Shown: positions 13,986-42,802, counted from the first letter of the stretch. The stretch: 64,000 nt of DNA from Trypanosoma brucei (GCA_000002445.1 CH464491.1:96001-160000), one strand, 5' to 3'. Numbers and translations are program-made. Notes: a model not told the origin generated them from the letters alone.

Positions 13986-15832
13986 GCTTGAAAATTAGAG
14001 CTGTTGTGCAACACAAACAGAGACACACACACACACACACAAAGGCAGAACCGTACACCTATAAGAAGAAAAAATAAGAAATACGTAAGTTTCGAAACCA
14101 ACCATTTGGAGAAATAAGACGATTACAAACACGTCAAGAACAGGGGGAAAAAAGGGAGGTAAAGCGCCTGGAGGAAACAAACCATTGAAGGGAAGGTGGT
14201 TCAGCATTTACCTCACTTAAACCGCAACCTCGTCGAACAGTAAGCACACGAACAAATGTGTGCATGTGAAAATAATAAACACGAACAACTTTCCCAATTG
14301 TGGCGAAATTTTATGATAATGATGGTAAGGAGGAAGAAAGGAAGAGGAGGAGAAGGGGGAATAAAAAAAAAATGCGACACAAAACTCCGCGCATCCGGCA
14401 GCTGCTGACATCAATCATAAAACCGGCAGAAATTGGTAACACACACGCACATGAGCCCACAGTAAAGCTGTGAACATCAGTGAGCTCATATACATTCTTT
14501 TTTATATATATATTTCTCTCGTAAGGAAGGAGGAGGGAAATTTACCGAAATCGCGTGAGACTACTGCACCCCTCCCTTCCGTGTTAACTATAAATGTAAG
14601 CAACTCGCCACTGCTTCTCCACAAACGGTAAATGAAACATGTGTTGTTTCTTGTTTCTGTTATTTTTCTGTTTTCTCTTTTTTTTTCTCTTGTGGCTGTT
14701 GTTGTTGTTTTTATTTTTTTTCCCCCTTTTGGTATGGCTGTTGTCTACAGATTTGATACGCCGCTGTACTCCCGTCCCAGTCGGCGTATGGCACCACGGC
14801 GAATAAATAGAAATACCATTGTACCAACTATTCCAATTAGCAGTAAATATGCAACTAAATACCGTTCCCGTGGGATCTCCGGTTGTTGTTGGCGTTGTTG
14901 TTTTTGTTGGAGTTGCTCATGAACCTTCGCGGCAATGGAGACATTTGTAATATTTTCCATATTCCACTACAAGTAAATATTATCAAAATAAATGGCACCA
15001 AAATACACCACTTACAAACTGGACACAAATTCGATGGAAAAATACTTGAAACAGTAAAAACGAAAACGAAAAAAAAAAGAACTACAATAATAAGAATAAT
15101 AATGATTCATTTATTTTTTGTTAATATTCGAAACAAGAAGAAAAAAAAAAGGAACAAAGTAGAGCTTGTTAATTTGTTTTCTTTTACAGCATCATGAGCA
15201 AATGATATGAATGATAAGCACAAAAAAAAAGATACCGACAAAATATAAACATGAGGGCAAGTTTTTAAAAAGAAATATGTGAATGTTACTGCAATAGGAT
15301 CTGGGGAAATTCGCACTGAATGGTGAGAAGTTTACCAAATGTTCAAAAACAAAAATAATTATATGGACACACAACCATCACAACTTTAAATGACCGGTTG
15401 AATACTCATTGGAACACGCCAAACTCTCAAAGAAATATTTCTCAACATTGCGCTCAAGCAAACGATGCAGTAGTAGCAAAAAGGCATGTAACTAAAATAG
15501 GCGGTAAGCAACGAGGAAAAGGAAAAGAAAAAAAAAGGAACGCAACAATAAAATATTCCTACAAATATACACAGTACCAATATATGAAGTGCGGTTCACA
15601 ACTACACCGAAGAGAAAATCGCGGTTGAGGTACAGAAGGATTTTAAAAAACAAAAAGAAAAAGAAAAACATTAGTGACTGTAACACGTCATTCCACACAC
15701 AATCTTTTTATATGCTTTCCTCCTCCTTTTCTTTTCTTTTCTTTCCTTTTCTTTTTCTTTTCTTTCCTTTCCTTTCCTTTTCTTTCCTTTTTCATATATC
15801 ATATTATATTTTCTTTTTCTTTTTTTCCCCCT

Positions 15833-16306
15833 TTACGTTTCAGCACCACATCGGCGCAATTCCTCCTGCAGTACGCGACAACACTCCGCGAAAGGCCTCC
15901 CGCTTCCACAGCAGCATGACGGAGCATCCGGTGGTGAATTAATGAGATTTTGACGGAATGCCTCATCTCGAATGACGCGAATGGCCTCCGGAGTCCCAAT
16001 ATTTTTTAGCGCATTAAATTCAACGCATCGCCTCCGTAATGACGCAATTGTGCCGAATCGCTCGTGAATATTAGATTTAACGCCTTCTCGTGGTATTTTC
16101 CGTCGCTGCCTCCAACCCAAAGCTGCAAATATGGCGATAAAAGTAGTAACAATAACATACATACGCAATGAATCTTGATGAAGCCTACTGATAATAACTG
16201 CACCAAACCACCACACAATTAACCAAAGAATGCGCCTCACCCATCGCTTTTTGCTTTTTAACGAAGCCCGCTGCCTTCGCTCCGAAATATCTGAAGGTGG
16301 AGCCAT
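15833..16306 (-). CDS. Small membrane protein with C-terminal SEC-C zinc-binding motif (conserved hypothetical)
   Basis: 157-aa ORF, the only convincing ORF in about 9 kb of low-complexity DNA. Two predicted TM helices ('ILWLIVWWFGAVIIS', 'YVIVTTFIAIFAALGW'). 'CCCGSGRPFAECC' matches the SEC-C consensus C-x-C-G-S-G-x(4-5)-C-C. Confidence 0.5.
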   Translation of the reverse strand: MAPPSDISERRQRASLKSKKRWVRRILWLIVWWFGAVIISRLHQDSLRMYVIVTTFIAIFAALGWRQRRKIPREGVKSNIHERFGTIASLRRRCVEFNALKNIGTPEAIRVIRDEAFRQNLINSPPDAPSCCCGSGRPFAECCRVLQEELRRCGAET

Positions 16307-19300
16307 TAGTTTCTAAAAGGAGGAGGAGGGGGGGACAATATGCGCAAATACGGAAGATGATACAACAAAATATATATATATATATATATATATTATTATT
16401 ATTATAAAGAGGATAGATCACAAGTGAATAAACGGGCGACGTAAACTGCATTCACAAATTGAACCATAAACTTTTTCTCACTCTTTTTGAGGTGACGATA
16501 TCATGGCGGCAAAAAAAAAAAAAGAGGAAAGCAAAATTAATAACACCGTCGCAGTTACTCACATGAGTTTTGTAATAGTTCCATAACATCAAAAATGCAC
16601 CTTCTAATAATTAGGATGAAAAATATAAAAAAAGGCTCATTCCTCCCCTCATCAGCTCTCAGTATTGACTTGAGCATCACTCCGTTCAGATTATAATACC
16701 ATATAATATAAAAGTGTAAGAGATAAGAGGAAGAAAAGAGGCTCCAGCACATTAACGGAAAAATAATACACACAAATCACTAAAGTGATGTTAATAACAA
16801 CCTCAAACTTCAATAAATAAATCAATATATATATATATATATATTAAATAAATAAATATGTATATTGATTTATTTATTTGATATAATGAAGTTTTATATG
16901 GTGTTTACCAGTACCCGAAAGGGAATACAACCGATCCAACGCACTTTTACAACATCATCAATGTAAGCCAAAAAGACCCGAAAGGATTTCTTTTGCTGCC
17001 ACTTTCAACACAACTCCATCATTACTCCTATCATTTATACCTAACATACGCACTGAATAGTAAAGAAGAGAGAAATGAAGAAAAATGAAGAAAAAGGAAA
17101 AAATAGAAAGAAAAATAGAAGAGTCATTAAACAATGATGAGTTATTGCAGTAAACATTCACAAGTCAAATCCGTATATTTAATGAAAGGAGGGGGGGCAG
17201 TCACACGCAAAGCTCCTGAAGGTTTCGCTGGGGGCAAGGCAACTTCATACAGCGGAGAAGACTTTTTTTAAAAGAGAAAAAAAGCGCCAGAACCATCAGC
17301 TACACACCAACAAAATAAAAAAAAAAAGGAGAGCGCCACTCCACTTTAACCATGCATATATTCACACAACACCCTCTTTTTCCTTGATTCTCACACTCTT
17401 TTTTTTCCCCCATTCTTCCTCTTCTTCTGTCCTTCCTTTTTTTTTAAAACCTTTCTCCCTTTTTCCACCATATAGAAATAAACGTGAACATTTAAATATG
17501 AATGTATACCTTTTTTTTTCACCTTTTGGGTACAGAGCTTTGACTACCACATGCAGAGCATACATATGTTAATCCCACAAAAATAATATAAATAGATACA
17601 GATATACTTTTTTATTTATATTTGTGCTTGCATGTGTGTGCGCGTGCGTGCGTGCTTGTGTTTGTTTGTTTGTTTGTTTATATCCATGTGTATAACCATA
17701 TACAAATGTATTTTATATTATATCAATACGCTGTCTTTGCTAATTTTCTTTTTTGTTTTTTTTGGTTTTGTTTTCTTTTCTCCTTCTCTTGCTTTTGATA
17801 TTTTTCCCCTCTTTTTTTTTTGCTTTTTTCTTATTCCTTCTTCGTTGTTGCTTCCTCAATTTTACTTCTGCTTATAAATATATATATATATATATACTAC
17901 CCAACCATTCTTCCAGGTAATTCAGCGCTGATGAGTATCGACTGTGAAATACTATCTCTAACAATCCGTAACAAAAATAAAACTGAAAAAAAACATTTTT
18001 TACCAATCGTCGCTACATCCAAATAATATGAAAAGGGCTCAGCACATCTCATGTTCATTTGGGAAGCGAAGACTCGCGGCTCCTTTTGTTTGTTTGTTTG
18101 TTTCTTCTTTTCTTTCTTTCGTTTAAACTCTTCTTTTTCCACTTCGACGTTTTTTTTTCTTTTTTTCCTTTCCATTCTTCCCTTTTCGTTTCCCGCTCAC
18201 ATCCCTTTTTTTTCCCCCTCTTATTTTGAATTTTTGCTTCTTTTCCCTTCTTGTTTGTTTGTTTGTTTGTTTGCTCTTTTTTTTTCTTCTTTATTTTGAT
18301 CTGACGTATTCGTTTTCGCTAGTTATTCCTTTTGTTTTCATAAAACACAAACGCCGCTCTCTCTCTCTCTCTCTCACACAAATTTCTTTCTTTCATTGTT
18401 TTTTTTTTCCTCTTTTGATCCTTTTTTTTTTTCTGCTACTATTGTTTTTGACTTAGTCATGAGCCTCATTTTCCCTTCTGTATTTTTCCCCCCTTAGAAT
18501 CCGTTCCACTCATTTATATATATATATATAATTTATAAATATTTAAATTTATTGTGAAAACCTCCTTTACGCCGACGCATGCGCGCTCTCACTTGTCCCA
18601 CCCTTTTTTTTGGTTCTTTTTTTTTTCTTGTGTGTCTGTCTTTGCGTATATTTTGTTTGTTTCTTCTCTTTTCTGCATTTTCTGCATTTTCTTCATGCCA
18701 CATTTCCACTCCAATCCTTTCGCCACTTCCGTTCCCTTTCATTTCCTTCCCATCATTATAACATTACTGTTCATACATAATATTCCCCAAATACAATATA
18801 AAACAGCGGTACCACATTTAAAAATAAATTAAAAAATTAAAAAATAAAGTAAAGTTAAGGTAAATAAAAGACATAAAAATAAGAAAAATAAGAGAAAGAA
18901 AAGCGAACCGCTGAAAACACACACATATATGCGCGTAAAAAACAAAAAAACAAAAGAAACAAAAGGGGAAAAGGAACAAAACAGAACAGAACAGAACTGA
19001 TGAGGGAAAGAAATGAAAGAAATGGGCAAAACGAAGAGAAGAGGCACCGAAAGAGTAAAAGTCATCTTTTTCTGTCTTTTATTTTTTTTTTTCGTTTCAT
19101 GGCCACAAAACATGAAGCCATACACGCACGTATACTCATGCACACGGTAAAAGCAGATGATTCCGGTAATAATTTTTTTTTGTAAAAATAAAAAAGAAAC
19201 CCCCAAAAAAAAAAATACACAAAAAAATGGTAGGTAACAAAAAGCCGCTGGTATATAAACACACTATATGATGAATCGTAAATATTGTGTTACTTATCAA

Positions 19301-19830
19301 ATGTTCATGATCCTCTTCCCTCACACACACACACACACAAACATACCGTAAGAGAGAAGATCAGGGACACTTCCAAACACAATAAAACGTAAAAAAAAAA
19401 AAAGAACGAAAAATGAGAGGAAATTCAGGCGGGACGACGCGAGAACTTTTCGAAAGGGAGGAATCGGTAAAATAGTGCATAACAAAAGGAGAAAAGAAAA
19501 AGAGAAAAAGAAAAAAAAGAAAAAAAAAAGAGGAGAAAAAAGGGAAAAGAAAAAAGAAAAAAGGGAAGAGGGAAAGAAGACAACAACGGTCAACTGGAAC
19601 GAAGGAAACCCACATATGAAAATAACTGGGTGGTGAAAACAGCAAAAATAGCATATGAACAACAACAACAACAACAAGAACAAACAAACAAACAAACGAG
19701 CAAAAAAAAGTAGAAAAAACAAAAACAAAAACAACCAAAAACTGACCACCCAAATTTGCCTAACACACGACACAAGAAATAATAGCCAAAAAGTATGCGC
19801 GAAGAAATATGAAAGCGAGGGAGTATAATT

Positions 19831-19872
19831 AAATGAAATGAAATGAATGAACGAATGAATGAATGAACGAAT
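19831..19872. repeat. (GAATGA/AATGA)n repeat
   Basis: 'aaatgaaatgaaatgaatgaacgaatgaatgaatgaacgaat'. Confidence 0.85.
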
Positions 19873-20763
19873 AGTGGGCATGAGATTGCACTTTTCAGTA
19901 GTTCAAGCCACTCAGAGGTGTTGTGAATCAAAAAAAAAAAATGTAAAACATGGACAAAGAAAACAGAAAGGCAAACACACACACAAAACAAAAAGTAAAG
20001 GAGATTTGCTTCAACCACATATAATGTGATTTAGAAAGAACAAAACAACAAACAAAAGGGAGAAAGGTACGTTCATGATGCACACAAAAAAACAAAAAAA
20101 CAAATACGAATTTGTACCAAATAAAAACAAAAAAGAAGTTAAGAGACACATTTTGCGTACGGACGCACTCAAAAATAAAAATGGTGCAGCGGTACCCAAA
20201 AGAGAGGAGTAGGGAAAAGGGGGACATACATGATGCCAACTGTAATGGTGACAGGAACAACACACACTGAAACGAAAACAAAACAAAACAAAATACCAAA
20301 CGAGACATGCGCTTAACAATGCAGAGTATTTCGCTTCAGCTCGTTTCGCCTCGTTTCTCATTCCTTTTTTTTTCATTTTTTTCTTTCATTTTTTTTTTTG
20401 CGATGTACCTCTCCCAACTCATTGCATCCTCTCATGTCATCTTGTGTTTTTTTTCCGCATTCCTTTTTATGTTGTTATTTCATCATCATCATTTTCATCA
20501 CAATAATCTCCTCTCTTCGGCAGCACATGCACTTCCACAACTTAGTGTGTGTATGTTTCTCTATCCCCTCCTTTTTTTTTTTGAATTCTCTCTTCTTTTC
20601 ATTCTTTTAATTGTTCGTTCGTTTGTTCTCCTCTGCATTCACTCAACTGTCCTTTCCTCTCATATTCAACGGAATGTGACATGTGGAGAATTGACAGACA
20701 TTTCAACGCGTCAAGTAAATGCTCCAAATCATCATGAGGATCTTTCTTCAATCTCATCTTGTC

Positions 20764-20795
<32 letters not shown>

Positions 20796-22955
20796 AAATC
20801 AATATTACCCCTTCGTTCATCCTCTCTTTCTTCCCTATTTTCCTATTACTTTTTCATTTTTCTTTTTTCCCTTCTGTTTTTTTTTATTTTTAAAGAAAAG
20901 GTTTCCCTCGCACTTTTCTGTCCGCACACATCCACACACACAAAAACAAACACACATGCAAAATCTCTTTCTTTACTCTTTCCTTTTTTAAAAAAAAAAA
21001 ATTTCCCCTAATCTTTCCAAATATTTATTCTCACTACCGTCAGGCAACTCTTCTCACTTCCTCTTCTTGGGTTTCTCTCGTATGTGATGTTATGTATTAT
21101 TTTTTTTCTTTTTTTTTGGGGGGGGGAGGGGAAGTGGAGACGAACACTGCTGTAAAATGTGTCTGTTTGCATAAGATGCGGGTTCACCTTCATTCGGTGG
21201 GGAATAAAGAGGGAGAAAGAAAGAGAGAAGTAGTTAAAAATAAAAAAGAGAAAAAAAAAGAAATGAAATGTGTATGTAACTGACTTCAGGAATATGTTGC
21301 GGGTAAATAAATATTTATTTTTGGACTCCAACTACTTTCATATTGCCACCATAATATTCCCCACATTCACATCCATTACTCCGTCGTATCGCGTTGTACC
21401 CTTTTTTTTTTATTTATTACTTTAATCCTAATCTCAACCACCTCAACACCATCCTTTTCAATTGCATTCTTTTCTCCTCTCCTCTTTTTCTCCCCTTTTG
21501 CTATATATTTCTCACCTTTTCTTTTCTCTCTTTTTTTTTTATTGTTTTGTACAATCAACTCTGTATGTTGTCACAATACGCGCATGGCTCCCTATACAAA
21601 AGAAAAACACAAATACATGTACACACGAAAAAGCGGAGACACATACGTCTTTCTTTCCAACGACGCGCTCGACGTGGTTGTGCTTAGGTTTTCATATTAT
21701 AATTTATTATTTTTTTTTAATTTTTCACGCTCAAAAATTGATTTCATTATGTTCTCCTCATTCCTTCCACTTCCACTTCCACTTCTCCCACCTCTTTCTG
21801 TTTCTCTTTCTGTTTGTTTCCCTTCCTTTTTCTTTTTGCGTTTTTTTTTCCACCTTTCATTCGTTCTTTTCAACCGGGTCTGGCTCACTTCTTGCTGAAG
21901 GTTCCCTTCATTATCATATTATTATTATTATTATTGCTAGTGAGCTATTCTTTTCTTCCCTTCCCTTTCCTTTCCTTTTTTTGGATTTATTTATTTTTAT
22001 TTATCATATTTTTTTTTTCTGTTTCTTATTTTTTTTTTGCCCTCTCCACTATACTTTTATACTTTAACCCTTAAGTTAAATAAACAAATAAAACACACAT
22101 TGCATCTCGGTTATGATATCTTATAGCATCATGCCTTTACCTCAATAAGATATTTCCCTTTTGCCCTTTGTTTATCTGTAAATAAATAAATAAATATAAA
22201 TATGTATACACGCATACCAAAATGCATATACTTAAATACTTTTGTTGAAATTGTATCTCTTCCTCCCTGTTTCCTTCTCTCCCTCACATTTCCGCTATCA
22301 TTTGTTTCACCATCTTCATTTTATCCGTTGGCTAATTTTCCTGATTACCGTTTCTTCTCTTTGGCTTTGCCAACTCCTCCCTCTTTTTTTCTTTTTTTCT
22401 TTTTTTTCTTATTCTCCCATCTCTTCCTCCCTTCTCTCATTTGTGTCAAATTACCCCTTCCTAATATTTTCTTTTGGTTTTTGTTTCATTTCATTTTCCT
22501 ACTCGTTTACCCTTTATGAACCTTTCCGTTTCGGTACACATCACTTATCCCTTCTTTTTCTTATTATTATTATTATTATTCTTATTATTATTATTATTTC
22601 TTTTCTTTTTCCCTCCACCCATCACCCCTCTTCCTCATCCAATTCGATCCAATCCAACATTCTTTCACATCTGACATCAGAGTGCATTCTGTACCGTAAC
22701 GAAAGAAAAAAAATACACACAGAAATATATATATATATATATATATATACTCATTCTTTGATGTTTTTTTTTTCTTTTCGTGTCTGAAAAGAGAGAAGAA
22801 AAAGAAACAATAACTATAACAATAACAATAACAAGTAACAACAAAAACAATAGTAATAATAATAATACGGCCAAAGAGTAAAGAGTAAAGAGTAAAGTCA
22901 CACCTGCCCACAAATATGCATCTCACATATCACATAAAAGTCACTTTTTACCCCT

Positions 22956-23615: not shown

Positions 23616-23624
23616 TTGTTTTGC

Positions 23625-23700
23625 GACTGCACCGTCAAAAAAATCAAGAAGAAAGTAAAAACAAAAATATAAAAAAGAAAAGAAAAAGAAAAAAAAGACC
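23625..23700 (-). promoter_or_regulatory. Polypyrimidine tract (coding-strand sense) immediately upstream of the UBP1 ATG; candidate trans-splicing signal
   Basis: Plus strand here is A/G-rich ('aaaaaaatcaagaagaaagtaaaaacaaaaatataaaaaagaaaagaaaaagaaaaaaaag'), so the transcribed minus strand is U/C-rich. Confidence 0.45.

Positions 23701-25907: not shown

Positions 25908-25910
<3 letters not shown>

Positions 25911-25942
<32 letters not shown>
25911..25942. repeat. (AT)n microsatellite, about 16 units
   Basis: Read directly from sequence. Confidence 0.95.
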
Positions 25943-25950
<8 letters not shown>

Positions 25951-28900: not shown

Positions 28901-29853
28901 AGATATAATAATAATAATAATGATGATGATGAAAAATAAGAGAAAAGGAGGAAAATCGTCGGCACGGCGACGCTCGTCTGTCATCATTTCGTGTGTTTTC
29001 TAGGCAATAGAGAGGATCTTCTTTTTTTTTCCTTTTTGAAATAAAATGAAATGAATAAAAGGGTCAGCGCAACGCGAAGCTAATCAAACAATCACAAAAT
29101 ATCAAATAAGCGGCTAGGCGGGGTTTCTTTTTTTTTTTTCATCACATATTCGTATCGTCCCCTTTTTTTTTCTCTCTTTTCGCGATATTCAAACAGTTTT
29201 CAATTCCATTGGCGGGTTCCAACCGGGTATTGGGGGGACGACAGTCATTTACTTTGTTGTTGTTGTTGTTTCTTTTGGTAAATGGAAAAATGAAGAAGGA
29301 ACTGAGCGGATCAAATTTAAAAAAAGGAAGGAAGGTAGAACAAAAAAAAAAACAAGCGCCGTCCAACTTCACTGCTACGCAACAACGACATCAACGTTTC
29401 AGAAAACCGAATTTCAATGACAATAATAACATTTAGCAAATGCTGGTCGTTTATTTGAAATACTACTCCTCCCATTCTTTTCCTTTTAGCTTCTCCTCTG
29501 GTTGTTCTTATGTTGTGGCGTTCCCCAAAATCTGAATAAAAATACACCTCTCTTTTTTTTTTTTCTTGGTCTTTCCAATTTTATTCGGATTTCAACTTTG
29601 CTTTGTGTTTGCTTCTGGGTTTTGGCTTCTTCACCAGTTTCTTTCATTCTCCCCCATTTGAGATTCCATTGCAGACATTAAATCCCCACCCTTTTTCCTT
29701 TGTTGTTGTTGTTGTTAATAATTTTCCTCTCTTACTCCACTTGACTCTCTGTGTTACTCTTTTGCTTCTCTTTTTTTTTTCTCTCTCTTTCCCCTCGCGG
29801 AACACTTTCTTTTACCTTTGAGTCTTTCCTGTTTTGGGACCATGTTTTACAGT

Positions 29854-29856
<3 letters not shown>

Positions 29857-29897
<41 letters not shown>
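29857..29897. repeat. (AT)n microsatellite, about 20 units
   Basis: Read directly from sequence. Confidence 0.95.
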
Positions 29898-29899
<2 letters not shown>

Positions 29900-30660
29900 T
29901 TGTTTGTGTTTGTTTGTTTATTTTTTTCTTTAATCTTAACTGTCCACACATACTTAAATACACCAGAATGATTCAGTCTGCTCGACGTTAAACGAGCAAA
30001 TAGAAGATAACTCAGATGTCAAATATTTACTTACAAAAATATACGTTTGTGGGACGCGGAATTTTGTTATTGTTTCTGTCGTTGATGCCTCTGTCTTCTT
30101 TTTTTTTTCTTCGGTTTCGCCTCCTTTCTTTTTATTTTATTTTATTTTTCTTTTTAAGCCCTCTCCTCTATTCCCTCTCTATCCAACACCTTTCTGTCAC
30201 TATTTGCTCCACTTCATTCCTCTTCTCTTTGTGTTGTTCCTCTTTATTCGTTTTCTCCGACTCATGCTTCATTTTCTTTGTTTAAACCCTCTCGTATTAG
30301 TGGAAAAAAAAAATTCTTTGCATGGTGTGATTTCGACCTTTGTGACATTTCACACTTACCTCTGTTTTTTTTTCCTTTCCTTTCCTTTCTTTTAATGTTG
30401 GTTTGTTTTGTTTTGTTCTTTCGTCTCTTTTTCTCCTCCCCTCCATGGTTTTCTTTTTTTTTTCTTTTTTTAACTTCGTCATGATTCATCCATTCATTTG
30501 GGTCTAGTGGGGAGGGAGAGCCGCTTCTCCAACTATAAGGCTCATATTTTGTACACAAATATAAATGTATGTGTGACAACAAAATAAAGTAATAACAGTA
30601 ATAATGGTAATAATAATAATAATAATAAGCGAGAAGCAAGTAAAACCCAACCCCAACAAA

Positions 30661-30750
30661 ACATAACATAACATAACACAACATAACATGACATGGCACA
30701 ATATGACATGATATGATATGTGATATGACATGACATGACATGGCATGGCA
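30661..30750. repeat. (ACATA/ACATG)n pentanucleotide-type repeat, about 90 bp
   Basis: 'acataacataacataacacaacataacatgacatggcacaatatgacatgatatgatatgtgatatgacatgacatgacatggcatggcac'. Confidence 0.9.
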
Positions 30751-31189
30751 CAAAACACACATACAAACATACACACAAACAAACACAGACAACAGCTCTG
30801 TTTCAACGCCTCGCTTGTATGAAAAGAGCTCCCACTCCGCTCCGCCCCCCCCCCTCTTTTATTTTCTTCTTCATTTTATTTTTGCTTCAAAAATAAAAGG
30901 GAAACTTTCCTTCCCATTTCCTCCCTCTTGTGCCCTTACTTCTTTACATACACACTCCGACAGCCTCCTGGGGCATTTAAAGTTCATATTCCTTTTCTTT
31001 TCCCTTCTTTTTTTTTCTTTTTTTTTTGCATTTTCTGTCATATCACCTTTAAAATAATTAAAATTACTTATCCTTTAAAAAAAAAACCTTCCATTCTCTC
31101 TCACACCCCTCCATCTGCCCCACCGACCCTTGAAGGGAAGCTGACGGGTTGAGAACCCCCCAAAAAAAAAAAAAGAAAAAGAAAAAACA

Positions 31190-31717
31190 TTACTGACGGG
31201 ATATCGGAGGCATCGGGGAAGCGGCCATCATATAATGTTGTTGCATTGCCATCATTTGTTGTTGTGCATATGGATTAGCAACGGGAGGATAAGCACCATA
31301 GCCACCATACCCGCCATAACCGCCATACGCATTGAAACCATTGTTCATGTTACGCCCACGTTGATGACCGCTAGCAGCCAGCGCTACCTTCAGTCGTTTG
31401 TTGAGGATTACAAAACCATTCAATGATGCAATCGCCTGTTGAGCACTCGAGGCGCTCTGAAACTTCACGAAACCATAACCGCGACTTTGACGAGTCTCCC
31501 GATCACACACAATTTTAACCGACTCAATTGGGCCGAAGCGCTCAAACAACTGCCGGAGTTGCACCTCATCAACAGTAGTTGGAATATAATTTACCATAAG
31601 ATTGCGTAGCAAATCGAGATCTTGATTCATTGCTCCCATAGAAGGAGGAGGTGCCTGTTGTTGCTGCTGCTGAGGAGGCTGTTGTTGCGTTGTGTAATAC
31701 TGCGGTTGCTGGGACAT
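31190..31717 (-). CDS. UBP2: Single-RRM U-rich RNA-binding protein UBP2 (shorter paralog of UBP1)
   Basis: 175 aa. RRM identical to UBP1 except Ala->Pro (FGPIES). Shorter Q-rich N-terminus and a different C-terminus. Shares a 366-bp near-identical DNA block with the UBP1 gene. Confidence 0.8.
   Translation of the reverse strand: MSQQPQYYTTQQQPPQQQQQQAPPPSMGAMNQDLDLLRNLMVNYIPTTVDEVQLRQLFERFGPIESVKIVCDRETRQSRGYGFVKFQSASSAQQAIASLNGFVILNKRLKVALAASGHQRGRNMNNGFNAYGGYGGYGGYGAYPPVANPYAQQQMMAMQQHYMMAASPMPPISRQ
31244..31609. repeat. Duplicated block, copy B (within UBP2), offset +8171 from copy A
   Basis: As above. Confidence 0.9.
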
Positions 31718-32880
31718 TACGTAAATTACAGAACCTTATTATAAGTTATGATATAATACAAAAGTAAGATAGATAAATAAATATATATATATATATATAT
31801 ATGTATAGATATATATATATGTACTAGCTACGTTTTGCCAAGCTTTCTTTCCTTATTTTTCCTTCTAACCCTTTTTTTTGTCTTTGGTCTCTTTGCTTAC
31901 TTCCTATGTTCTAAAAAAAAAAAAAAAGACCTTTTCGATGATGTTTTTTTTTTTTTAATTTAATACCTTGTTAGCTTTCTGTAACTGTCCTAATTATTTC
32001 TCTTTGTTTATTAATCACTAGTAAAACACGGTTTCTTATTATTGTGTTGCGTTGTTGTTGTTGTTTTCGTTTTTGGTTGAGTGTTAACGTGGAAATGTGG
32101 AAGTTCCGACGGCAGCAGAGAGACGAATGAAAGAAATAATATATGTTCAGATATATGTATATGAAGGTAAAATATCAACCTTACACTGGTGCAATTAATG
32201 GAAAACAGAACTAAAAGCAATGCCTAACAATCACCCCAGCCGAAGCAAATCACAAAAAGATGATATTCAAAAAAGAAAAATAACGAATCGAGATGTTAAA
32301 CTGAACTCATAAATATTTTTTATATCTTTTTTTTTTTAATTCACAAAAAAAATAATAAAACGGACCTTCGCGCCGCAACACAACCCGCTACTTCCGAGAC
32401 ATTACGTGCGCTCAAATAAAATGGGAGACGAGAAATACGCCAAACAACCCGAGATGTATAATATATATGCATATATATATATATTGATGAAGCGAACAGG
32501 ACACAACAGCTATGAGGGTATATCTAATATAAAAAGAGATGCAAAAAAAAAAAAAAGAAACAATGATGGTTAAATAGTTCCACACATTTTTAAAGGTGGA
32601 CTCCTCCAGTCATCAGATTCATTTTGCCTCCTCCTCCTCCTCCTCCTCCTACCTTTTCATCCACTCCCCAGTGAAAAAAACTAATAACAAAAAAAAAAGC
32701 ATCTGTATTTTCTGTAACAATAAAAAATTATCCAGCCCCTCCCTCCTTCTCTTCTCCTTCAGCCTTCGCCACTAACACAAAACGGTATTTTACCATTCGT
32801 ACAAACGGTAAAAAGAATGATATTTGAAAAAAAAATTAAGATTAAAAAAGGACATTTTGTGCGATTGACTGCGAGGCATT

Positions 32881-34059
32881 TCATTGGAGGCCACTCCTCA
32901 ACTTCGCCTCGTCGATGCACCGTTCAAGGGTCACCCGAAGGTCATGTTCCCTGTTAATGCAGCGTTCCAATTGAGTAAAATCCCTACGATACGCCGCCTC
33001 TTGAGCTAACAAAAAGTCCTCAACAGCAGCTGCGGGTACGGGAGGCCCATCCGTTATGCAACATCCGCCTGCCGCATCCTCATCAGTTTGAAGGTTGACA
33101 TTCACGGATGAATAACTGGAGAAATTAATATTCGCCTGCCTCAGAAACATGCACGCCTGTTCCCGCTCAGTTCCCTCTACACCACCCACTGCAGCATCCA
33201 CTTTTAAGAGTGCTGCGACTGTTTCTGCAAGGTAAAGTAAAGCAAGGCGAAGCGCCACACGATGAGAAGAGGCAGCAGAGTTTAAAGGCAAATACGATAA
33301 GAGTGCGAGTGCCAGGTGGCGATCCTCCCGCAACTCAACACGGGCGGCGTCACCGGTAACAATGTGCAACGGAAGCAAATGTTTCTCCATCCATGGAATG
33401 ATATCACGCTCCAGTGCCTCATCTGTCACCGAAGCGCCAGCACAAATCCGACCTTGGAATGTTTCCCCGTCAGTTCCAGCAATACATGGTCCTATCCGTC
33501 GCATAGCATTGCGAATGGTTATGCGGGTGACGCGAAGGATGCTCAAAGGCTCGTTTTCAACGGTACTGCGTGGCAAGCAACTGAGAAGTTGCAGTAGGCA
33601 GTTAAGAATGTTACATCCCTCGTCACAGAGTGCATCCAATGGCGCATATTTCACAACTAAAACGGCCATTCGAAGCAGTGCTCCAATTGCTCGGGGACCC
33701 AACAGCGGGCGGTGCGCGAAACAATCAGCGAGACTCCGAAGGTTTTCTAACGAAATTTGATGCAAGCACGGCGCAGTTCCGGTCCCATCACCTCCCAATT
33801 CATTATATACCTGAAGGACATCCCTGACAGATTTCAGTATCATTTCCTCCATTCCAATAACCGCAGCCCCCGCCACATTGATGCTATTGCTGAGAAATAC
33901 CAATAATTGCGAAGTATGACGAGGCGCCTCTGGAAAACGAAAACCAGCAGAAATTCCACTAGAAAACAATGTGGCGTAAAAACTTCCTCCCGGTTTTCTT
34001 CCGTAAAGCGACGGTCCCTCGGGTGGGAAAGCAGTAACACCACCATTGCTCATTTCCAA
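32881..34059 (-). CDS. Conserved hypothetical protein (Leu/Ala-rich, helical)
   Basis: 392-aa ORF, co-oriented, non-repetitive composition. No recognisable motif. Confidence 0.45.
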   Translation of the reverse strand: MEMSNGGVTAFPPEGPSLYGRKPGGSFYATLFSSGISAGFRFPEAPRHTSQLLVFLSNSINVAGAAVIGMEEMILKSVRDVLQVYNELGGDGTGTAPCLHQISLENLRSLADCFAHRPLLGPRAIGALLRMAVLVVKYAPLDALCDEGCNILNCLLQLLSCLPRSTVENEPLSILRVTRITIRNAMRRIGPCIAGTDGETFQGRICAGASVTDEALERDIIPWMEKHLLPLHIVTGDAARVELREDRHLALALLSYLPLNSAASSHRVALRLALLYLAETVAALLKVDAAVGGVEGTEREQACMFLRQANINFSSYSSVNVNLQTDEDAAGGCCITDGPPVPAAAVEDFLLAQEAAYRRDFTQLERCINREHDLRVTLERCIDEAKLRSGLQ

Positions 34060-37000
34060 ATAGTTATATAACTCTTCCTATTAGTTTGTTTGTATTGTTT
34101 ATTTCGACACTCCACTCCAAGTTTCAACCCTCGTTACACCGCTTATGGATTATCAAATAGCAGTAAAGATGAAAATGTGGATAAAACAAAACAATAATAA
34201 TAATAGAAAATAATAATGAGATTATAATAAAGGATGGGGAATTTTTTTTTACTTTAGATATGATGGACATTGTGCCAAACAGAGTGTCAGAGAAGAATTC
34301 AAGTGATGTTGTTGGCGAGGCAAATCATTAAAATAAGTGTTGAGGCAAATTCGCATAGAAAAAGAGGAGTTTAGGTTTGAAATGTTTTATTATGCAAATT
34401 ACGCACCACGCATGCGCATATCATCCCCAGCATGTTGATTTCTTTTCTTCTTTCCCATGTGATTTGTCTCATTCCACTTCTTCTGCCACTGCCATTCCGT
34501 TTTGTTTGGTGTTTTTTTTTTCATTTCCTTTTTTAAAAAAAAGAAAACCACTTGTGTCAGTGTGTATAAGTGTGCGCTTATGTGCAAATATACATTAAAT
34601 ACATTATATATATGTATATATATGTATAGGTATGTATATATGTATGTATACGTCATGTGGATTTTGCACGTATGTGATATAGCTGAAACATGTTACATGA
34701 ATCAGAGTATATTCAAATATCACACATATGCTCAACATCACACAACAGACACACACACATATGCGCAAACACACAATGACAAAAAAGAAAAAAAAGACAT
34801 ATACACATATACATATATACTCATTTATATATATGTATATATATATATATATGCGGACAAAAGTTAAAAGAGCAAAGAAACAACAACAAACAAAAAAAAA
34901 CAAAAGTAAGACACATTTATGTCGAAGTATACGGTAACTCATTCCGCACGTCCATGGAAAACATTTTGCAACGGCAAGAGTTAAAAATCCTCGAGACACT
35001 GCTCGTAGAACTCCTTTCATAACTCTCAACCCCTTCGTCATCTCTTCTCCGCATTTAAAACCATTGTGTTGCGAAAAGTAACTGATTAAAAGCAGGGGAC
35101 AAAACAAAAACAAAATCAAAAAAAAACAAACACAAGCTCACGCGTAAGCGCAAAAAAAAAAAAAAAAGACGCTAATATCATACGTCACTCCTTACCTTTG
35201 CTTAGTCCGTGTGTGGACGTTCGTCCCTCCGCTCGTTCTCAAGGCCGCTCAACTTATAATAGTAGCGAAAAAGAAAAATACTTTTAAAAAAAAAAGGCAG
35301 CAAAAAAATGAAAAATAGAGAAATAAAAAAAGAAAACAAGCTCCTTCCTCCTTTTAATCAATCCTTCCGCTGTTGGACCCTAATGAAAAATCGGGCAAAT
35401 GCATATAATAATATAGTGGTAATATATATGTAAATAAATATGAATGTATATATATATATATATATATCATCAGCCTCTACACGGTTACAAAGGAATTAAG
35501 ACTGAGGGAAAAGCCCCCCCAAAAAAAAAAAAGAAACAAATCGAAGCAAAACAAAGCAAAGCGGAAGGTATTTATTTATATTATTAATATTTATATGTAG
35601 CACCAGTATCTGGAGGAGAGGAGGAGGAGGAGGAGAGGAAGAAGAAAAAACAACGTTTCAGCGCCTCCAACAAACCTCCCCCGCAACACAAAACAAAAAA
35701 AACAAAACAAAACAAAAATGAAAGGAAATGAAATGAAAAGAAAAGAAAATGAGGGATAGAGCAAATACAAGACAGCAACAACAACACAGAATTGAGAGAA
35801 ACAGGAAATAAAATAAAAAAGGGGGGAAAATATATTTACAAAAAGAAAAAAAGCAAGAACCCAATCGAGACAAAGACGGTCTCAAACACATCAGTTTATT
35901 ATTAATAAAAATATTCTTCATATCGTCTCCCACTGTTAATATTTAGTTATGTTTGTTTGTTATATTTCCTCAACTTAACCCTTCACGCATACTCTCCTTT
36001 TTCGTCTTTCTTTTTGTTTACTTTCTTTTTTTTTTCTTCTTTCCTTCGTTTCACGAAAACGTATTTTTCCCGTTTCTCTTTCTTTTATTTTTAATATATT
36101 TTTGTCCCCTTTCTCTCTTCTCTAATCCCTCTTTCCTCACGCATACGCGGACGAAAACAAAAAAAAATTAAAAAGGAAAAAAAAGAAAAAAGAAAAAAGA
36201 AAAAGAAACAAATTGGTCACTCTTTTTTTATTTATTTATTTATTTACTTTAGGAACTGCCGCTTCCTCCCTCTTTTGCCTCCATATCCTCTCTCCCGCAA
36301 ATACGCAAAAACATACACGTCTAAATAATATTCAAAACGGAGCGTTGCCTCATTTATTTATTTATTTAAAAATCACTTCACCGTTTGTTCTCTTCATCTT
36401 CTCTGCTTCTATTCACACTATTTGTTCCCTGATATTATTCTCTCACTGCTTTACTCCTCTTTCACTTCTTTTTATTTCCGATTAAATTCCAAACACCATC
36501 ATCATTATTTTCCCTTTTTATTATTTTTTTTTCCTTTTTTTATTTTACTTTTTTTTTAATTTTACGGAAATATAAAGAAAAAGAAGAAAAGGAGGGTAAA
36601 AGAAAGTAGCGACGGTATGACCCATTTAACTAAAAAAAATTTTCCCGTCCTCCTCCTCCTCCCCTGTTTTATTATTTTTTAAAAAAAAAAAAGAATCCAT
36701 TATATTATTGCGGCATCCGCCACACATGCGTAACACCCTCAATTAACAGAAGAGGGGAGGGGGGAAAAAAAAAAAAGAAAAGAAAAAAAAACGAAAACAA
36801 AAAAATTAAACCTACGTAAAGAAAAAAAAAATGAGAATACAAAGAAAAAAAAAGCAAAGCAAAAGCATAAACTGTCAAAAGCAGCAGTAAAACGAAAAGT
36901 AAAAAAAGAAAAAAGAAAAACAACCCCGTACCCGCCAACAGAAACCCCCCCCTTCTGCCCACAGGAAAAAAAAAGCATATAAATCGTGAACTTAAAAAAA

Positions 37001-37923
37001 AGAAAATCACCACACATTCATAAAAAAAAAAAAGATATAAAGAAAAAGAAAAGAAAAACAAATGCTTACAAACAATATAAGAGAAAACAAACAAAAAAAA
37101 GAGAGTTTACAACCGTCGCAAAACGCACAGGTTCTTCTTCTTCAGTTTTCAACCTTTCTTTTCTTTAAAAACATCAAACAATAATAATAATAATAACAGT
37201 AATAGTAATAGTAATAATCAATAATCAATAATCAATGATAGTTATAGCTATATTTATACTTATATATATTTATATCGGTGGTAACAGCAGCAGCAGCAGT
37301 AATAGTAATAGTAATAATAATAATAACAATAATAATCACACAATAAAGGCAACACAAAATAGAAGAGACGTTAAAAATTAAAAAGTGCCGCATGGGAGGA
37401 AAATATTTTGAAAAAAAAGAAAAAGATATATCCGCGTTCATACGTCACGGCCACTTTTAAAAAAGTTGCAGCAACCCGCCACAGTGCGTGTAAAACTTTG
37501 CGGTCCTCCAACAACGTCCACCACACTGAAAAAAAAAAAACAATCAAGGAAATAAACAATGTGGAAACGAACAAGGAGAAGATGGAAAAAGAAAAAAAGA
37601 GTGGGGGTATATATCGTAAAGGATTGAGCAACAACAAAACGGGAAAAAAAAAAGAAAAAAAGAAAAAGAAAAAAAAAAGATGACCGACATGAATCAGTGG
37701 GGCGATAATTCTTGGTGGCAAACCTGTGTACAAACAAGAAACAAAAAGAAGAAACCCCAATTTCCTTTTTCCCCCTTTCCTAATCTTTTCCCCAACCTCA
37801 TCCTTTACTTCTTTCCATCATTTCCCTCTTTCCTCCTCCTCTTCTTCCTTTCCACACACCACCCCCATACAATTCTACTTCCCAATAGCTGCTGTCACAC
37901 ACACAAATACACATTTCATAATG

Positions 37924-38541
37924 TTAATTCTGCTGCTGCTGCTGCTGCTGTGCGAGAAACATCTGCCGCTGGAAGATATTTTGCATAGCAGCCTGCTGTT
38001 GCATTGTAAACATCATGGCGGATGCACTCATGGCCTTGTAGCTTTCCATAGCCGCCTCCGCATTGGCAAATGCCACCTTTAATCGTTTCCCTGCAATGGG
38101 GTATCCATTCAACCATTGCACAGCATATGTGGCGCTAAAGAAATACATATACTTCACAAAACCATAACCTCGACTCTCTCTTGTAACCTTGTCGTAAATA
38201 ATCTTCACGCTCTCAATGGGACCGAATTGCGCAAACAGTTGGAAAAGCCGGTCCTCGTCCATCATGGGAGGCAAATAATTGACAATAAGGTTTCGCAACG
38301 GTTCCGGTTCCATCGAAAATGAGGGTCTCGGGGCGGCGAATGGAGCTGCCCTCGGAGTTAAACCTCCACTGAGATGTTGTTTCGACCCTTCAGGCGCCTC
38401 GGCTTCATTTGATGGAAGTTGAGGTGCTGATGTCATCGGTGGCGGCATTTGCGTGGAAATAAAAGGAGATGATGTGGATGCGGGCGCTGCCTCCCCTACT
38501 GGGAAGCTTTCACACTCCGGTTCCATTTGTATTGGTAACAC
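37924..38541 (-). CDS. RBP3: Single-RRM RNA-binding protein RBP3 (third UBP-family paralog in the cluster)
   Basis: 205 aa. RRM 'LRNLIVNYLPPMMDEDRLFQLFAQFGPIESVKIIYDKVTRESRGYGFVKYMYFFSATYAVQWLNGYPIAGKRLKVAFANAEA' is clearly homologous to the UBP1/2 RRM but diverged at the DNA level. C-terminal polyQ. Confidence 0.75.
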   Translation of the reverse strand: MLPIQMEPECESFPVGEAAPASTSSPFISTQMPPPMTSAPQLPSNEAEAPEGSKQHLSGGLTPRAAPFAAPRPSFSMEPEPLRNLIVNYLPPMMDEDRLFQLFAQFGPIESVKIIYDKVTRESRGYGFVKYMYFFSATYAVQWLNGYPIAGKRLKVAFANAEAAMESYKAMSASAMMFTMQQQAAMQNIFQRQMFLAQQQQQQQN

Positions 38542-42765: not shown

Positions 42766-42802
42766 AAACAAACAAACAAACAAACAAACAAACAAACAAA
42801 CA
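42766..42802. repeat. (CAAA)n tetranucleotide microsatellite, about 9 units
   Basis: 'aaacaaacaaacaaacaaacaaacaaacaaacaaaca'. Confidence 0.9.

What the first reader, a model, noticed from the sequence alone, without database searches (positions are those of the whole stretch)
13986..38000. A 24-kb gene-poor island around three regulatory RBP genes, made of kb-scale alternating homopurine/homopyrimidine blocks
Outside this stretch the unit is tightly packed, with a gene roughly every 1.5-3 kb. Between 13986 and 37924 there are only five ORFs (SEC-C protein, UBP1, UBP2, a hypothetical, RBP3). The rest, about 20 kb, is extreme low-complexity DNA in strand-asymmetric blocks. The plus strand is CT-rich at about 17200-18800, 20300-22700, 24100-25700, 29450-31100 and 35950-36700. 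It is AG-rich at about 18830-20300, 26500-29400 and 36740-37100. Long UTRs are expected for regulatory RBP mRNAs in trypanosomes, but kb-long homopurine:homopyrimidine tracts can form triplex/H-DNA. On the mRNA they would also provide U-rich and A/G-rich landing pads. The proteins encoded here bind U-rich RNA, so autoregulatory or cross-regulatory binding to their own UTRs is a concrete possibility.
Basis: partly seen in the sequence, partly recalled or inferred. Interest (0 to 1): 0.5.

Follow-up and report, generated by a model that had tools for sequence, protein, structure and literature searches.

The report
Long UTRs of trypanosome RNA-binding genes
The 24-kb "gene-poor island" is the already mapped set of very long 3' untranslated regions of the Trypanosoma brucei UBP1, UBP2 and RBP3 genes, and its purine-rich and pyrimidine-rich blocks are a published type of translation-control sequence, so it is real but ordinary for this organism.

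Summary
The window is T. brucei TREU927 chromosome 11 (chromosome coordinate = window + 96001), with all genes on the minus strand. Coding density is 12% in 13986-37923 against 67-72% in the flanks. Purine fraction swings in blocks of 0.4-2.4 kb far beyond shuffles (sd 0.12-0.17 vs 0.03). "Homopurine/homopyrimidine" is overstated: blocks are 63-72% pure, only 20% of bases lie in perfect tracts of 12 nt or more, and the longest perfect tract is 97 nt. A sixth small annotated ORF (Tb927.11.485) was missed. The same architecture occurs outside the island at 41589-44115.

Published annotation based on long-read RNA sequencing (Trenaman 2024) gives 3'UTRs of 5.8 kb for UBP1 and 7.3 kb for UBP2. That paper's reporter screen scored three fragments from these UTRs as strong positive elements, and all three lie on mRNA-sense A-rich purine blocks. 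Long 3'UTRs on RNA-binding-protein mRNAs, A-rich polypurine activators and U-rich polypyrimidine modulators are all published.

New here: the gene order, long downstream regions and block alternation persist in T. vivax, T. cruzi, T. theileri and L. major, without any UTR sequence similarity. Kb-scale H-DNA is not supported. Autoregulation remains untested. Verdict: already known, low interest.

The parts
37924..38541 (-). RBP3 (Tb927.11.530) coding sequence, single RRM
   Evidence: ORF. Pfam RRM_1 E=3.6e-18. Syntenic ortholog in T. cruzi and T. theileri.
34060..37923 (-). Region downstream of RBP3, 3.86 kb: inferred RBP3 3'UTR plus the splice signal and 5'UTR of Tb927.11.520. Pyrimidine-dominated in mRNA sense.
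   Evidence: pPyT proxy 9.3/kb against pPuT 3.6/kb. Purine-fraction sd 0.116 against 0.031 in shuffles. No published UTR coordinates were found in the held table, so the boundaries are inferred.
32881..34059 (-). Tb927.11.520 hypothetical protein CDS (probable ATG start at 34053)
   Evidence: ORF. No Pfam hit. Its stop matches the published UTR end. 390 aa in T. b. gambiense.
32202..32880 (-). Tb927.11.520 3'UTR (679 nt)
   Evidence: Published coordinates 128203-128881 minus the 96001 offset.
31190..31717 (-). UBP2 (Tb927.11.510) CDS, single RRM
   Evidence: ORF. RRM_1 E=2.5e-22. 94% identical to UBP1 over 31226-31692.
23845..31189 (-). UBP2 3'UTR, 7,345 nt. Order in mRNA sense: purine block (31150-29401), pyrimidine-rich stretch (29000-25901, interrupted at 27800-27401), purine-rich stretch (25900-24001, interrupted at 24850-24501).
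   Evidence: Published UTR 119846-127190. Blocks. pPuT 7.1/kb and pPyT 6.5/kb. The MPRA fragment at window 29014-31657 was positive, log2FC 5.4.
23616..23844 (-). Processing region between the UBP2 poly(A) site and the UBP1 ATG: polypyrimidine tracts (mRNA sense, 23760-23730 and 23698-23671), an AG acceptor near 23628, and a short UBP1 5'UTR
   Evidence: Sequence read directly. 28-nt perfect tract at 23671-23698.
22956..23615 (-). UBP1 (Tb927.11.500) CDS, single RRM
   Evidence: ORF. RRM_1 E=1.9e-21. 99% identical to the T. b. gambiense protein.
17174..22955 (-). UBP1 3'UTR, 5,782 nt. Order in mRNA sense: purine block (22750-20301), pyrimidine block (20350-18751), purine block (18850-17601).
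   Evidence: Published UTR 113175-118956. Blocks. pPuT 9.5/kb and pPyT 3.5/kb. The MPRA fragments at window 20738-23369 and 16406-18337 were positive, log2FC 4.8 and 5.9.
16307..17173 (-). Region downstream of the UBP1 poly(A) site: long polypyrimidine tract (mRNA sense, about 17125-17060), candidate AG acceptors, and the 5'UTR of the SEC-C-like gene. Contains an AT-rich palindrome at 16812-16878.
   Evidence: Sequence read directly. Inverted repeat.
15833..16306 (-). SEC-C-motif-like small protein CDS (157 aa)
   Evidence: ORF. Only a sub-threshold SEC-C motif hit (E=0.15). CCCGSGRPFAECC is visible in the translation.
14855..15028 (-).
   Evidence: The published 3'UTR of Tb927.11.485 ends at window 14854, exactly below this ORF's stop codon. 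No Pfam hit.
14159..14854 (-). Tb927.11.485 3'UTR (696 nt)
   Evidence: Published coordinates 110160-110855.
19484..19580 (+). Longest perfect homopurine run (97 nt on the plus strand, so a U/C tract in the UBP1 3'UTR). The best local candidate for any triplex or H-DNA test.
41589..44115 (-). Comparison element outside the island: the Tb927.11.550 3'UTR (2.5 kb) with the same purine-pyrimidine-purine block order
   Evidence: Published UTR 137590-140116. sd 0.158 against 0.032 in shuffles. Block map.

Best explanation
The island is not empty DNA. It is transcribed sequence within a single minus-strand polycistron, dominated by the 3'UTRs of UBP2 (7.3 kb), UBP1 (5.8 kb) and, by inference, RBP3 (up to about 3.7 kb).

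The compositional blocks are clusters of two known classes of cis-element, read in mRNA sense. [quoted passage not shown] (b) U-rich polypyrimidine tracts are general binding platforms for U-binding proteins, potential cryptic trans-splicing signals that must be masked in the nucleus, and proposed modulators or maskers of the purine tracts.

Shown: the UTR boundaries, the positive reporter activity of three purine-block fragments, the tract densities, the local lack of RNA structure within blocks, and conservation of UTR length and alternation without sequence conservation.

Inferred: that the kb-scale segregation itself matters, for example through long-range purine:pyrimidine pairing; that the pyrimidine blocks act negatively here; and that the UTRs are what distinguish the regulation of two paralogs whose coding cores are kept nearly identical by gene conversion.
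For: - The coordinate offset to Tb927_11_v5.1 was checked at seven independent stop codons.
- The UTR annotation rests on nanopore direct RNA reads plus spliced-leader and poly(A) reads. UTR lengths are 5,782 and 7,345 nt against a median of 388 nt.
- MPRA fragments at window 16406-18337, 20738-23369 and 29014-31657 all scored 'increased' (log2FC 4.8-5.9, FDR 0.052). Their UTR portions lie mainly on mRNA-sense purine blocks.
- A-rich purine tract density is 7.1-9.5/kb in the UBP1 and UBP2 UTRs, against 1.4/kb in short intergenic regions and 0.8/kb in CDS. This fits UBP1 and UBP2 being abundant proteins.
- The published model covers pPuT activation and pPyT modulation, and notes over-representation of 'mRNA binding' genes among long UTRs rich in both tract types. 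RBP and kinase mRNAs have unusually long 3'UTRs.
- Canonical poly(A) site, polypyrimidine tract, AG and ATG anatomy is present at both UTR ends.
- The order ABC-RBP3-hyp-UBP2-UBP1 is seen in T. b. gambiense, T. cruzi and T. theileri. The UBP2-UBP1 pair is also seen in T. vivax and L. major. Downstream regions of 2.4-9.5 kb occur in all five.
- Block alternation is kept (sd 0.11-0.19 in Trypanosoma, 0.08-0.13 in L. major) although only the ORFs align between species.
- Blocks are predicted to be locally unstructured: -12 against -34 kcal/mol per 150 nt (-13 against -27 at matched GC), Spearman 0.77.
- In the whole-UTR MFE, 752 of 1,855 pairs join purine blocks to pyrimidine blocks.
Against: - The UTR boundaries and reporter data come from one publication, not from reads I could inspect. 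Reporter hits sit at the dataset's minimum FDR (0.052) and were not individually validated, by the authors' own caveat.
- The held part of the table has no fragments from the pyrimidine-rich middle of either UTR, so their effect is unknown.
- RBP3 UTR coordinates were not found.
- My tract counts use a proxy, not the paper's motif model.
- The long-range purine:pyrimidine pairing is purely compositional: shuffles within 100-nt bins give the same number of block-to-block pairs. Kb-scale MFE predictions are also unreliable.
- The lack of sequence conservation, and indel-rich divergence between T. brucei subspecies (gap columns 3-6% in UTR against 0.1% in CDS), also fit weak constraint.
Confidence: 0.78

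Rival explanations
1. Largely neutral low-complexity sequence. Slippage-prone purine and pyrimidine microsatellite-like tracts have expanded in UTRs where constraint is weak. If anything is selected, it is only overall length (long mRNAs tend to be less abundant) and the terminal processing signals, not the blocks.
For: - No UTR sequence similarity beyond T. brucei subspecies.
- UTR gap columns are 3-6% against 0.1% in CDS, and substitutions about 1% against 0.5%, between T. b. brucei and T. b. gambiense.
- There are 87 tandem-repeat rows of short units.
- Clayton's review lists low abundance through length as one of two explanations for long UTRs.
Against: - Purine-block fragments have strong positive reporter activity.
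- Length and alternation are retained in five trypanosomatid lineages despite complete sequence turnover.
- UBP1 and UBP2 are abundant proteins, so length is not simply lowering expression.
Confidence: 0.25
2. DNA-level non-B structure. The purine:pyrimidine tracts form H-DNA/triplexes or R-loops that pause RNA polymerase II, position nucleosomes or affect replication, and this is the selected function.
For: - 18 triplex-type mirror repeats in the island against 1 in the rest of the window and 0-2 in local-composition shuffles.
- 72 perfect tracts of 20 nt or more.
- R-loops in T. brucei are enriched in inter-CDS/UTR regions, with polypyrimidine and poly(A) motifs.
Against: - There are no kb-scale homopurine tracts. 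Purity is 63-72% and the longest perfect tract is 97 nt.
- The mirror repeats are short (arms 10-17 nt) and very A/T-rich.
- Reporter activity was scored on fragments in their native orientation, and the authors report that inverted U-rich fragments became A-rich activators. That points to the RNA, not the duplex.
- The R-loop association is genome-wide at all inter-CDS regions, not specific to this island.
Confidence: 0.08
3. The blocks hold independent transcripts: lncRNAs, or spliced-leader-capped polyadenylated RNAs produced from internal polypyrimidine tracts. On this view the annotated UTRs are composites.
For: - Internal U-rich tracts are numerous: 20 in the UBP1 UTR and 48 in the UBP2 UTR.
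- Loss of DRBD18 or DRBD3 activates cryptic splice sites in long 3'UTRs and yields UTR-derived RNAs.
- The reference genome carries 1,491 annotated lncRNAs. About 20% of them are detected only as parts of UTRs.
Against: - The manual long-read-based annotation calls continuous UTRs of 5.8 and 7.3 kb.
- There are no Rfam families at gathering threshold and no tRNAs in the window.
- ORFs inside the blocks are low-complexity artefacts on both strands.
Confidence: 0.15
4. Auto- or cross-regulatory loop. UBP1 and UBP2 (U-rich binders) bind the pyrimidine blocks of their own and each other's 3'UTRs to set their own levels.
For: - The UBP2 UTR has 48 U-rich tracts and the RBP3 downstream region has 36.
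- UBP1 overexpression is toxic, so dosage matters.
Against: - No enriched motif distinguishes UBP1-bound UTRs from unbound ones.
- U-rich tracts are ubiquitous in trypanosome UTRs.
- Self-enrichment in pull-downs is usually an artefact of the nascent peptide, and no UBP1 value is tabulated.
- No autoregulation is mentioned in the two T. cruzi UBP1 transcriptome papers I searched.
Confidence: 0.2

Closest known systems
Poly-purine / poly-pyrimidine 3'UTR regulatory 'code' of T. brucei (Trenaman, Tinti, Wall & Horn 2024, PMC11405848)
   Same: Same organism, and these very UTRs are in the paper's data table. Long (over 2 kb) 3'UTRs of mRNA-binding-protein genes carry dense A-rich polypurine and U-rich polypyrimidine tracts. 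The purine-rich fragments score as positive elements.
   Different: The paper treats tract density and dosage, and shows base-composition tracks. In the text I read it does not describe the kb-scale ordered alternation (purine, then pyrimidine, then purine, then splice signal) or its persistence in other trypanosomatids. Whether UBP1/UBP2 fall in its 'bloodstream up-translated' cohort was not checked.
Unusually long 3'UTRs of trypanosome RNA-binding-protein and protein-kinase mRNAs (Clayton 2019 review, PMC6597758), e.g. RBP10 (>7 kb) and ZC3H20-22 (>4 kb)
   Same: RRM-protein genes with multi-kb, low-complexity 3'UTRs inside a polycistron.
   Different: Many of the classic examples are low-abundance, stage-specific regulators. 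UBP1 and UBP2 are abundant proteins, and their UTRs are purine-tract-rich positive elements.
DRBD18/DRBD3-masked cryptic polypyrimidine tracts in long 3'UTRs
   Same: Many internal U-rich tracts that resemble trans-splicing signals lie inside the UBP1 and UBP2 UTRs.
   Different: No data were available on whether these particular mRNAs are DRBD18 or DRBD3 targets.
H-DNA-forming mirror-repeat polypurine:polypyrimidine tracts
   Same: Short mirror-symmetric R:Y tracts are enriched (18 in 24 kb).
   Different: Tracts are 21-37 nt, not kb-scale, and the block purity of 63-72% is incompatible with continuous triplex formation. Structure formation is untested.
Inter-CDS R-loops of T. brucei (Briggs et al. 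2018, PMC6294496)
   Same: The same kind of sequence (UTR/intergenic polypyrimidine and poly(A) tracts) is where DRIP-seq signal concentrates.
   Different: It is a genome-wide property of processing regions. No locus-specific signal was examined here.

Membership tests
[quoted passage not shown] | The sequence lies between the stop codon and a mapped poly(A) site, on the coding strand of a polycistron | tested here: met
   Published curated UTR coordinates map exactly below the UBP1 and UBP2 stop codons. The offset was verified at seven genes. All ORFs are on the minus strand. For RBP3 the boundary is inferred only.
[quoted passage not shown] | The encoded protein is an RNA-binding protein | tested here: met
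   Pfam RRM_1 at E=1.9e-21 (UBP1), 2.5e-22 (UBP2) and 3.6e-18 (RBP3).
[quoted passage not shown] | Length of several kb, far above the genome median | tested here: met
   5,782 and 7,345 nt against a median of 388 nt and a mean of 622 nt.
pPuT/pPyT regulatory UTR (Trenaman 2024) | High density of A-rich polypurine tracts in mRNA sense | tested here: met
   Proxy count (9 nt or more of [AG], at least 60% A): 9.5/kb for UBP1 and 7.1/kb for UBP2, against 1.4/kb in short intergenic regions. The paper's threshold of more than 20 FIMO motifs per kb could not be applied without its motif matrix.
pPuT/pPyT regulatory UTR (Trenaman 2024) | Fragments raise reporter expression in their native orientation | tested here: met
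   Three fragments from these UTRs scored 'increased', log2FC 4.8-5.9, FDR 0.052, in Supplementary Data 1. This is a literature look-up, not a new experiment.
pPuT/pPyT regulatory UTR (Trenaman 2024) | Co-occurring dense U-rich polypyrimidine tracts | tested here: inconclusive
   UBP2 6.5/kb, RBP3 region 9.3/kb, but UBP1 only 3.5/kb by my proxy.
pPuT/pPyT regulatory UTR (Trenaman 2024) | Bloodstream-form up-translation of the mRNA / conditional unmasking | not tested
   No ribosome-profiling values were retrieved. In silico, purine-block:pyrimidine-block pairing is possible but purely compositional.
H-DNA / intramolecular triplex element | Uninterrupted homopurine:homopyrimidine tract of the claimed (kb) scale | tested here: not met
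   The longest perfect tract is 97 nt, only 20.5% of bases lie in perfect tracts of 12 nt or more, and blocks are 63-72% pure.
H-DNA / intramolecular triplex element | Mirror-repeat symmetry within R:Y tracts | tested here: met
   18 short mirror repeats (arms 10-17 nt, spacer 8 nt or less, at least 90% R or Y), against 0-2 in local shuffles. These are short elements only.
H-DNA / intramolecular triplex element | Single-strand-specific nuclease or chemical sensitivity under supercoiling | not testable with these tools
   Needs S1 or permanganate footprinting.
Autoregulatory RBP-own-mRNA loop | Direct, preferential binding of UBP1/UBP2 to their own UTRs, with an effect on their own expression | not testable with these tools
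   No CLIP or RIP values were available for Tb927.11.500/510. The literature reports no specific motif for UBP1.
Independent ncRNA genes inside the blocks | Match to a known RNA family or a tRNA | tested here: not met
   Rfam at gathering threshold: 0 matches. ARAGORN: 0 genes. Uncharacterised lncRNAs cannot be excluded.

The most novel reading that the evidence does not exclude
The kb-scale ordered alternation is itself a selected RNA architecture. After the stop codon comes an A-rich purine block, then a U-rich pyrimidine block, then a second purine block, then the splice signal. This order has been maintained across Trypanosoma lineages despite complete sequence turnover. Each block is intrinsically single-stranded and can pair only with a block of the opposite type hundreds to thousands of nt away. 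That gives a tunable long-range duplex, sensitive to temperature or to protein binding, that hides or exposes the translation-activating purine tracts. Abundant U-binders such as UBP1 and UBP2 could compete for the pyrimidine block and so feed back on their own mRNAs.
Probability: 0.12. Interest if true: 0.55.

Novelty: already known. Interest (0 to 1): 0.17.

Why it matters
It matters little as a discovery. Long low-complexity 3'UTRs on trypanosome RNA-binding-protein mRNAs, and the activating role of A-rich purine tracts, are published, and these very UTRs have been annotated and assayed.

Two modest points are useful. First, the locus is a clean natural example: two paralogs whose coding cores are homogenised by gene conversion differ almost only in their 3'UTRs. 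Second, block alternation and UTR length survive complete sequence turnover between trypanosomatid lineages. That argues for selection on composition and architecture rather than on sequence, and it gives a simple comparative test of the published 'masking' model.

Tried and rejected
- Self-BLAST of 13000-39000, to test whether the UBP2 and UBP1 units (ORF plus UTR) are a tandem duplication. Only the ORF cores match (94% over 471 nt). The UTRs share nothing but (TA)n and other simple repeats.
- Rfam (gathering threshold) and ARAGORN over the whole window: no hits.
- Cross-species BLASTN of the island against five orthologous loci, to find conserved UTR elements: none beyond the ORFs, apart from two short low-complexity hits.
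- An apparent threefold higher substitution rate in pyrimidine blocks than in purine blocks between T. b. brucei and T. b. gambiense. This was traced to one poorly aligned stretch at 35-36 kb next to an assembly gap and was rejected as a signal.
- A 'purine block first after the stop codon' rule. It does not hold for the short-UTR genes in the window (R 0.32-0.70), so it is not a general rule.
- Specific complementarity between purine and pyrimidine blocks. Local shuffles give the same block-to-block pairing. The roughly 10% more stable native MFE was compared with mononucleotide shuffles only, so I do not interpret it.
- Hartmann et al. 2007 (Northern sizes of UBP1/2 mRNAs) is not held. Supplements for the lncRNA, DRBD18 and Erben papers are not held. 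I therefore obtained no lncRNA coordinates and no RIP values for this locus.
- ORFs inside the blocks (up to 234 aa, both strands) are F/L/S/K-rich translations of low-complexity DNA and were not pursued.

Full report
**Identity of the window.** All long ORFs lie on the minus strand. UBP1, UBP2 and RBP3 each carry one RRM. Supplementary Data 1 of Trenaman et al. 2024 (PMC11405848) lists 3'UTR coordinates on Tb927_11_v5.1. After subtracting 96001, those coordinates end exactly one base below the stop codon of seven ORFs spread over 39 kb of the window: Tb927.11.485.500.510.520.550.590 and .620. The window is therefore T. brucei TREU927 chromosome 11, about 96,002-160,001. The T. b. gambiense ortholog aligns at 94.6% (gaps counted) over the 15-kb segment 21179-36027.

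**Check of the observation.** Coding density is 11.9% in 13986-37923, against 71.5% and 67.3% on either side. The sd of purine fraction in 300-nt windows is 0.12-0.17, against 0.03 in dinucleotide-preserving shuffles, and no shuffle comes near.

The wording "homopurine/homopyrimidine" is too strong.
- Blocks are 63-72% pure.
- One fifth of non-coding bases lie in perfect tracts of 12 nt or more.
- The longest perfect tracts are 97 and 79 nt.

There is also a sixth, very small annotated ORF (Tb927.11.485, 14855-15028). The 2.5-kb 3'UTR of Tb927.11.550, outside the island, shows the same alternation. The pattern therefore belongs to long UTRs, not to this island.

**What the island is.** The published annotation was curated by hand from nanopore direct RNA reads and from reads containing spliced leader or poly(A). 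It gives a UBP1 3'UTR of 5,782 nt (window 17174-22955) and a UBP2 3'UTR of 7,345 nt (23845-31189). The genome median is 388 nt. The UBP2 UTR ends 230 nt upstream of the UBP1 ATG. That gap contains polypyrimidine tracts and an AG just before the ATG, which is the usual coupled polyadenylation/trans-splicing layout. The same layout follows the UBP1 UTR end. The 3.9 kb downstream of RBP3 is presumably mostly its 3'UTR, but I found no published coordinates for it.

**Reading the blocks on the mRNA.** Because the genes are on the minus strand, plus-strand CT-rich blocks are A/G-rich in the mRNA.
- UBP1 UTR, from the stop codon: purine block, pyrimidine block, purine block, then the splice signal for the next gene.
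- UBP2 UTR: the same order, with interruptions.
- Tb927.11.550 UTR: the same order.

A-rich purine tracts (proxy definition) reach 9.5/kb in the UBP1 UTR and 7.1/kb in the UBP2 UTR, against 1.4/kb in short intergenic regions. The RBP3 downstream region is instead pyrimidine-dominated, at 9.3/kb U-rich tracts.

**Published function.** Trenaman et al. report three things. A-rich polypurine tracts in 3'UTRs raise translation according to dosage and density. U-rich polypyrimidine tracts co-occur with them in long UTRs. mRNA-binding-protein and kinase genes are over-represented among long UTRs rich in both tract types.

Their positive-selection table contains three fragments from these UTRs, at window 16406-18337, 20738-23369 and 29014-31657. 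All are 'increased', with log2FC 4.8-5.9. The UTR portion of each lies mainly on a purine block.

Other published background fits.
- ZC3H28-bound UTRs are long and enriched in poly(AU) and polypurine tracts.
- DRBD18 and DRBD3 are proposed to mask polypyrimidine tracts in long UTRs that would otherwise act as cryptic splice sites.
- UBP1 pull-downs favour long-3'UTR mRNAs, without a distinguishing motif.

**Comparative evidence obtained here.**
- The gene order ABC transporter-RBP3-hypothetical-UBP2-UBP1 is seen in T. b. gambiense, T. cruzi and T. theileri. The UBP2-UBP1 pair is also seen in T. vivax and L. major. Leptomonas has four tandem UBP-like genes.
- The regions downstream of UBP2 and UBP1 are 2.4-9.5 kb in all of these species.
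- Purine/pyrimidine alternation is strong in Trypanosoma (sd 0.11-0.19), moderate in L. major (0.08-0.13) and weaker in Leptomonas (0.06-0.10).
- The single Bodo saltans contig is compact, with about 1 kb spacing.
- Between species only the ORFs align.
- Between T. brucei subspecies, UTRs differ by about 1% substitutions and 3-6% gap columns, against 0.5% and 0.1% in CDS.

Length and architecture are therefore retained while sequence is not.

**RNA structure.** In 150-nt windows the blocks are predicted to be almost unstructured: -12 kcal/mol against -34 for balanced sequence, and -13 against -27 at matched GC, with Spearman 0.77. This follows from the chemistry, because a purine-rich stretch has few partners nearby.

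In whole-UTR minimum-free-energy folds, 752 of 1,855 pairs in the UBP1 UTR join purine blocks to pyrimidine blocks, and 707 pairs span more than 500 nt, against 250 in a global shuffle. Shuffling within 100-nt bins gives the same picture. The potential for "masking" is thus a matter of composition, not of specific complementarity, and such long folds are unreliable. In the UBP1 UTR, purine-block bases outnumber pyrimidine-block bases about two to one. Full masking of the purine tracts is therefore impossible there.

**DNA-level ideas.** Eighteen short mirror-symmetric R:Y repeats (arms 10-17 nt) lie in the island, against one elsewhere in the window and 0-2 in local shuffles. They stem from short tandem units such as (AAAAG)n. 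Nothing approaches a kb-long triplex-forming tract. Published DRIP-seq shows that R-loops concentrate in inter-CDS and UTR regions genome-wide, with polypyrimidine and poly(A) motifs. The authors also report that inverted U-rich fragments turn into A-rich activators, which points to the RNA as the active molecule.

**Autoregulation.** The idea is reasonable but untested. I found no CLIP or RIP values for these genes, no UBP1 entry in the self-enrichment table, and no mention of feedback in the two T. cruzi UBP1 transcriptome papers I searched.

**Verdict.** The H-DNA idea is not supported at the claimed scale, and autoregulation remains open. Novelty: already known. The only additions are the cross-species persistence of length and alternation without sequence conservation, and the sharp confinement of UBP1/UBP2 gene conversion to the coding cores.

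Noticed in passing
window 23055-23522 vs 31226-31692; L002, L003, L004, L005: UBP1 and UBP2 coding cores show concerted evolution. Within each species they are 86-99.8% identical at the DNA level (T. brucei 94%, T. vivax 91%, T. cruzi 91%, L. major 99.8%, T. theileri 86%), whereas T. brucei matches the other species at only about 68-78%. The conversion tract stops at the ORF edges, so the paralogs differ mainly in their termini and 3'UTRs.
   Followed up: partly
window 41589-44115: The 2.5-kb 3'UTR of Tb927.11.550, outside the flagged island, has the same purine-pyrimidine-purine block order (sd of purine fraction 0.158 against 0.032 in shuffles).
   Followed up: yes
window 14855-15028 (minus strand), 3'UTR 14159-14854: A tiny ORF (57 codons from TTG, 29 from the first ATG) corresponds to annotated gene Tb927.11.485, which has its own 696-nt 3'UTR and a weakly positive MPRA fragment. 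It has no Pfam hit.
   Followed up: partly
window 16812-16878: An AT-rich near-perfect palindrome (67 nt, 87% self-complementary) lies in the long region between the UBP1 poly(A) site and the SEC-C-like gene ATG.
   Followed up: no
window 20764-20791, 22725-22749, 25911-25978, 29857-29897, 31769-31823, 34605-34641, 34799-34852, 35422-35467: (TA)n microsatellites recur through the UTRs. Poly(AU) tracts, together with polypurine tracts, are reported as enriched in ZC3H28-bound long 3'UTRs.
   Followed up: no
window 35000-36800 vs L001 4961-5700: The region downstream of RBP3 is about 500 nt shorter in T. b. gambiense (3,350 vs 3,864 nt). The gambiense sequence contains a 100-N assembly gap, and it holds most of the apparent substitutions between the subspecies. 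This is probably a repeat-length difference or an assembly problem.
   Followed up: partly
window 20307-21011 (+), 19321-19881 (-), 28376-28987 (-); L001 15265-15744, 16583-16897, 19175-19501, 19802-20122: Long spurious ORFs (up to 234 aa) run through the low-complexity blocks on both strands. The T. b. gambiense record has called genes in the equivalent places, none with a Pfam hit.
   Followed up: no
L007 5598-17536: Leptomonas pyrrhocoris carries four tandem UBP-like single-RRM genes spaced 2.8-3.9 kb apart, instead of two.
   Followed up: no
L003 (T. cruzi), literature: A 2024 paper reports a chimeric UBP2(1-17)/UBP1 mRNA arising after CRISPR disruption of TcUBP1. That implies RNA- or DNA-level exchange between the two tandem genes across their 4.6-kb spacer.
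   Followed up: no
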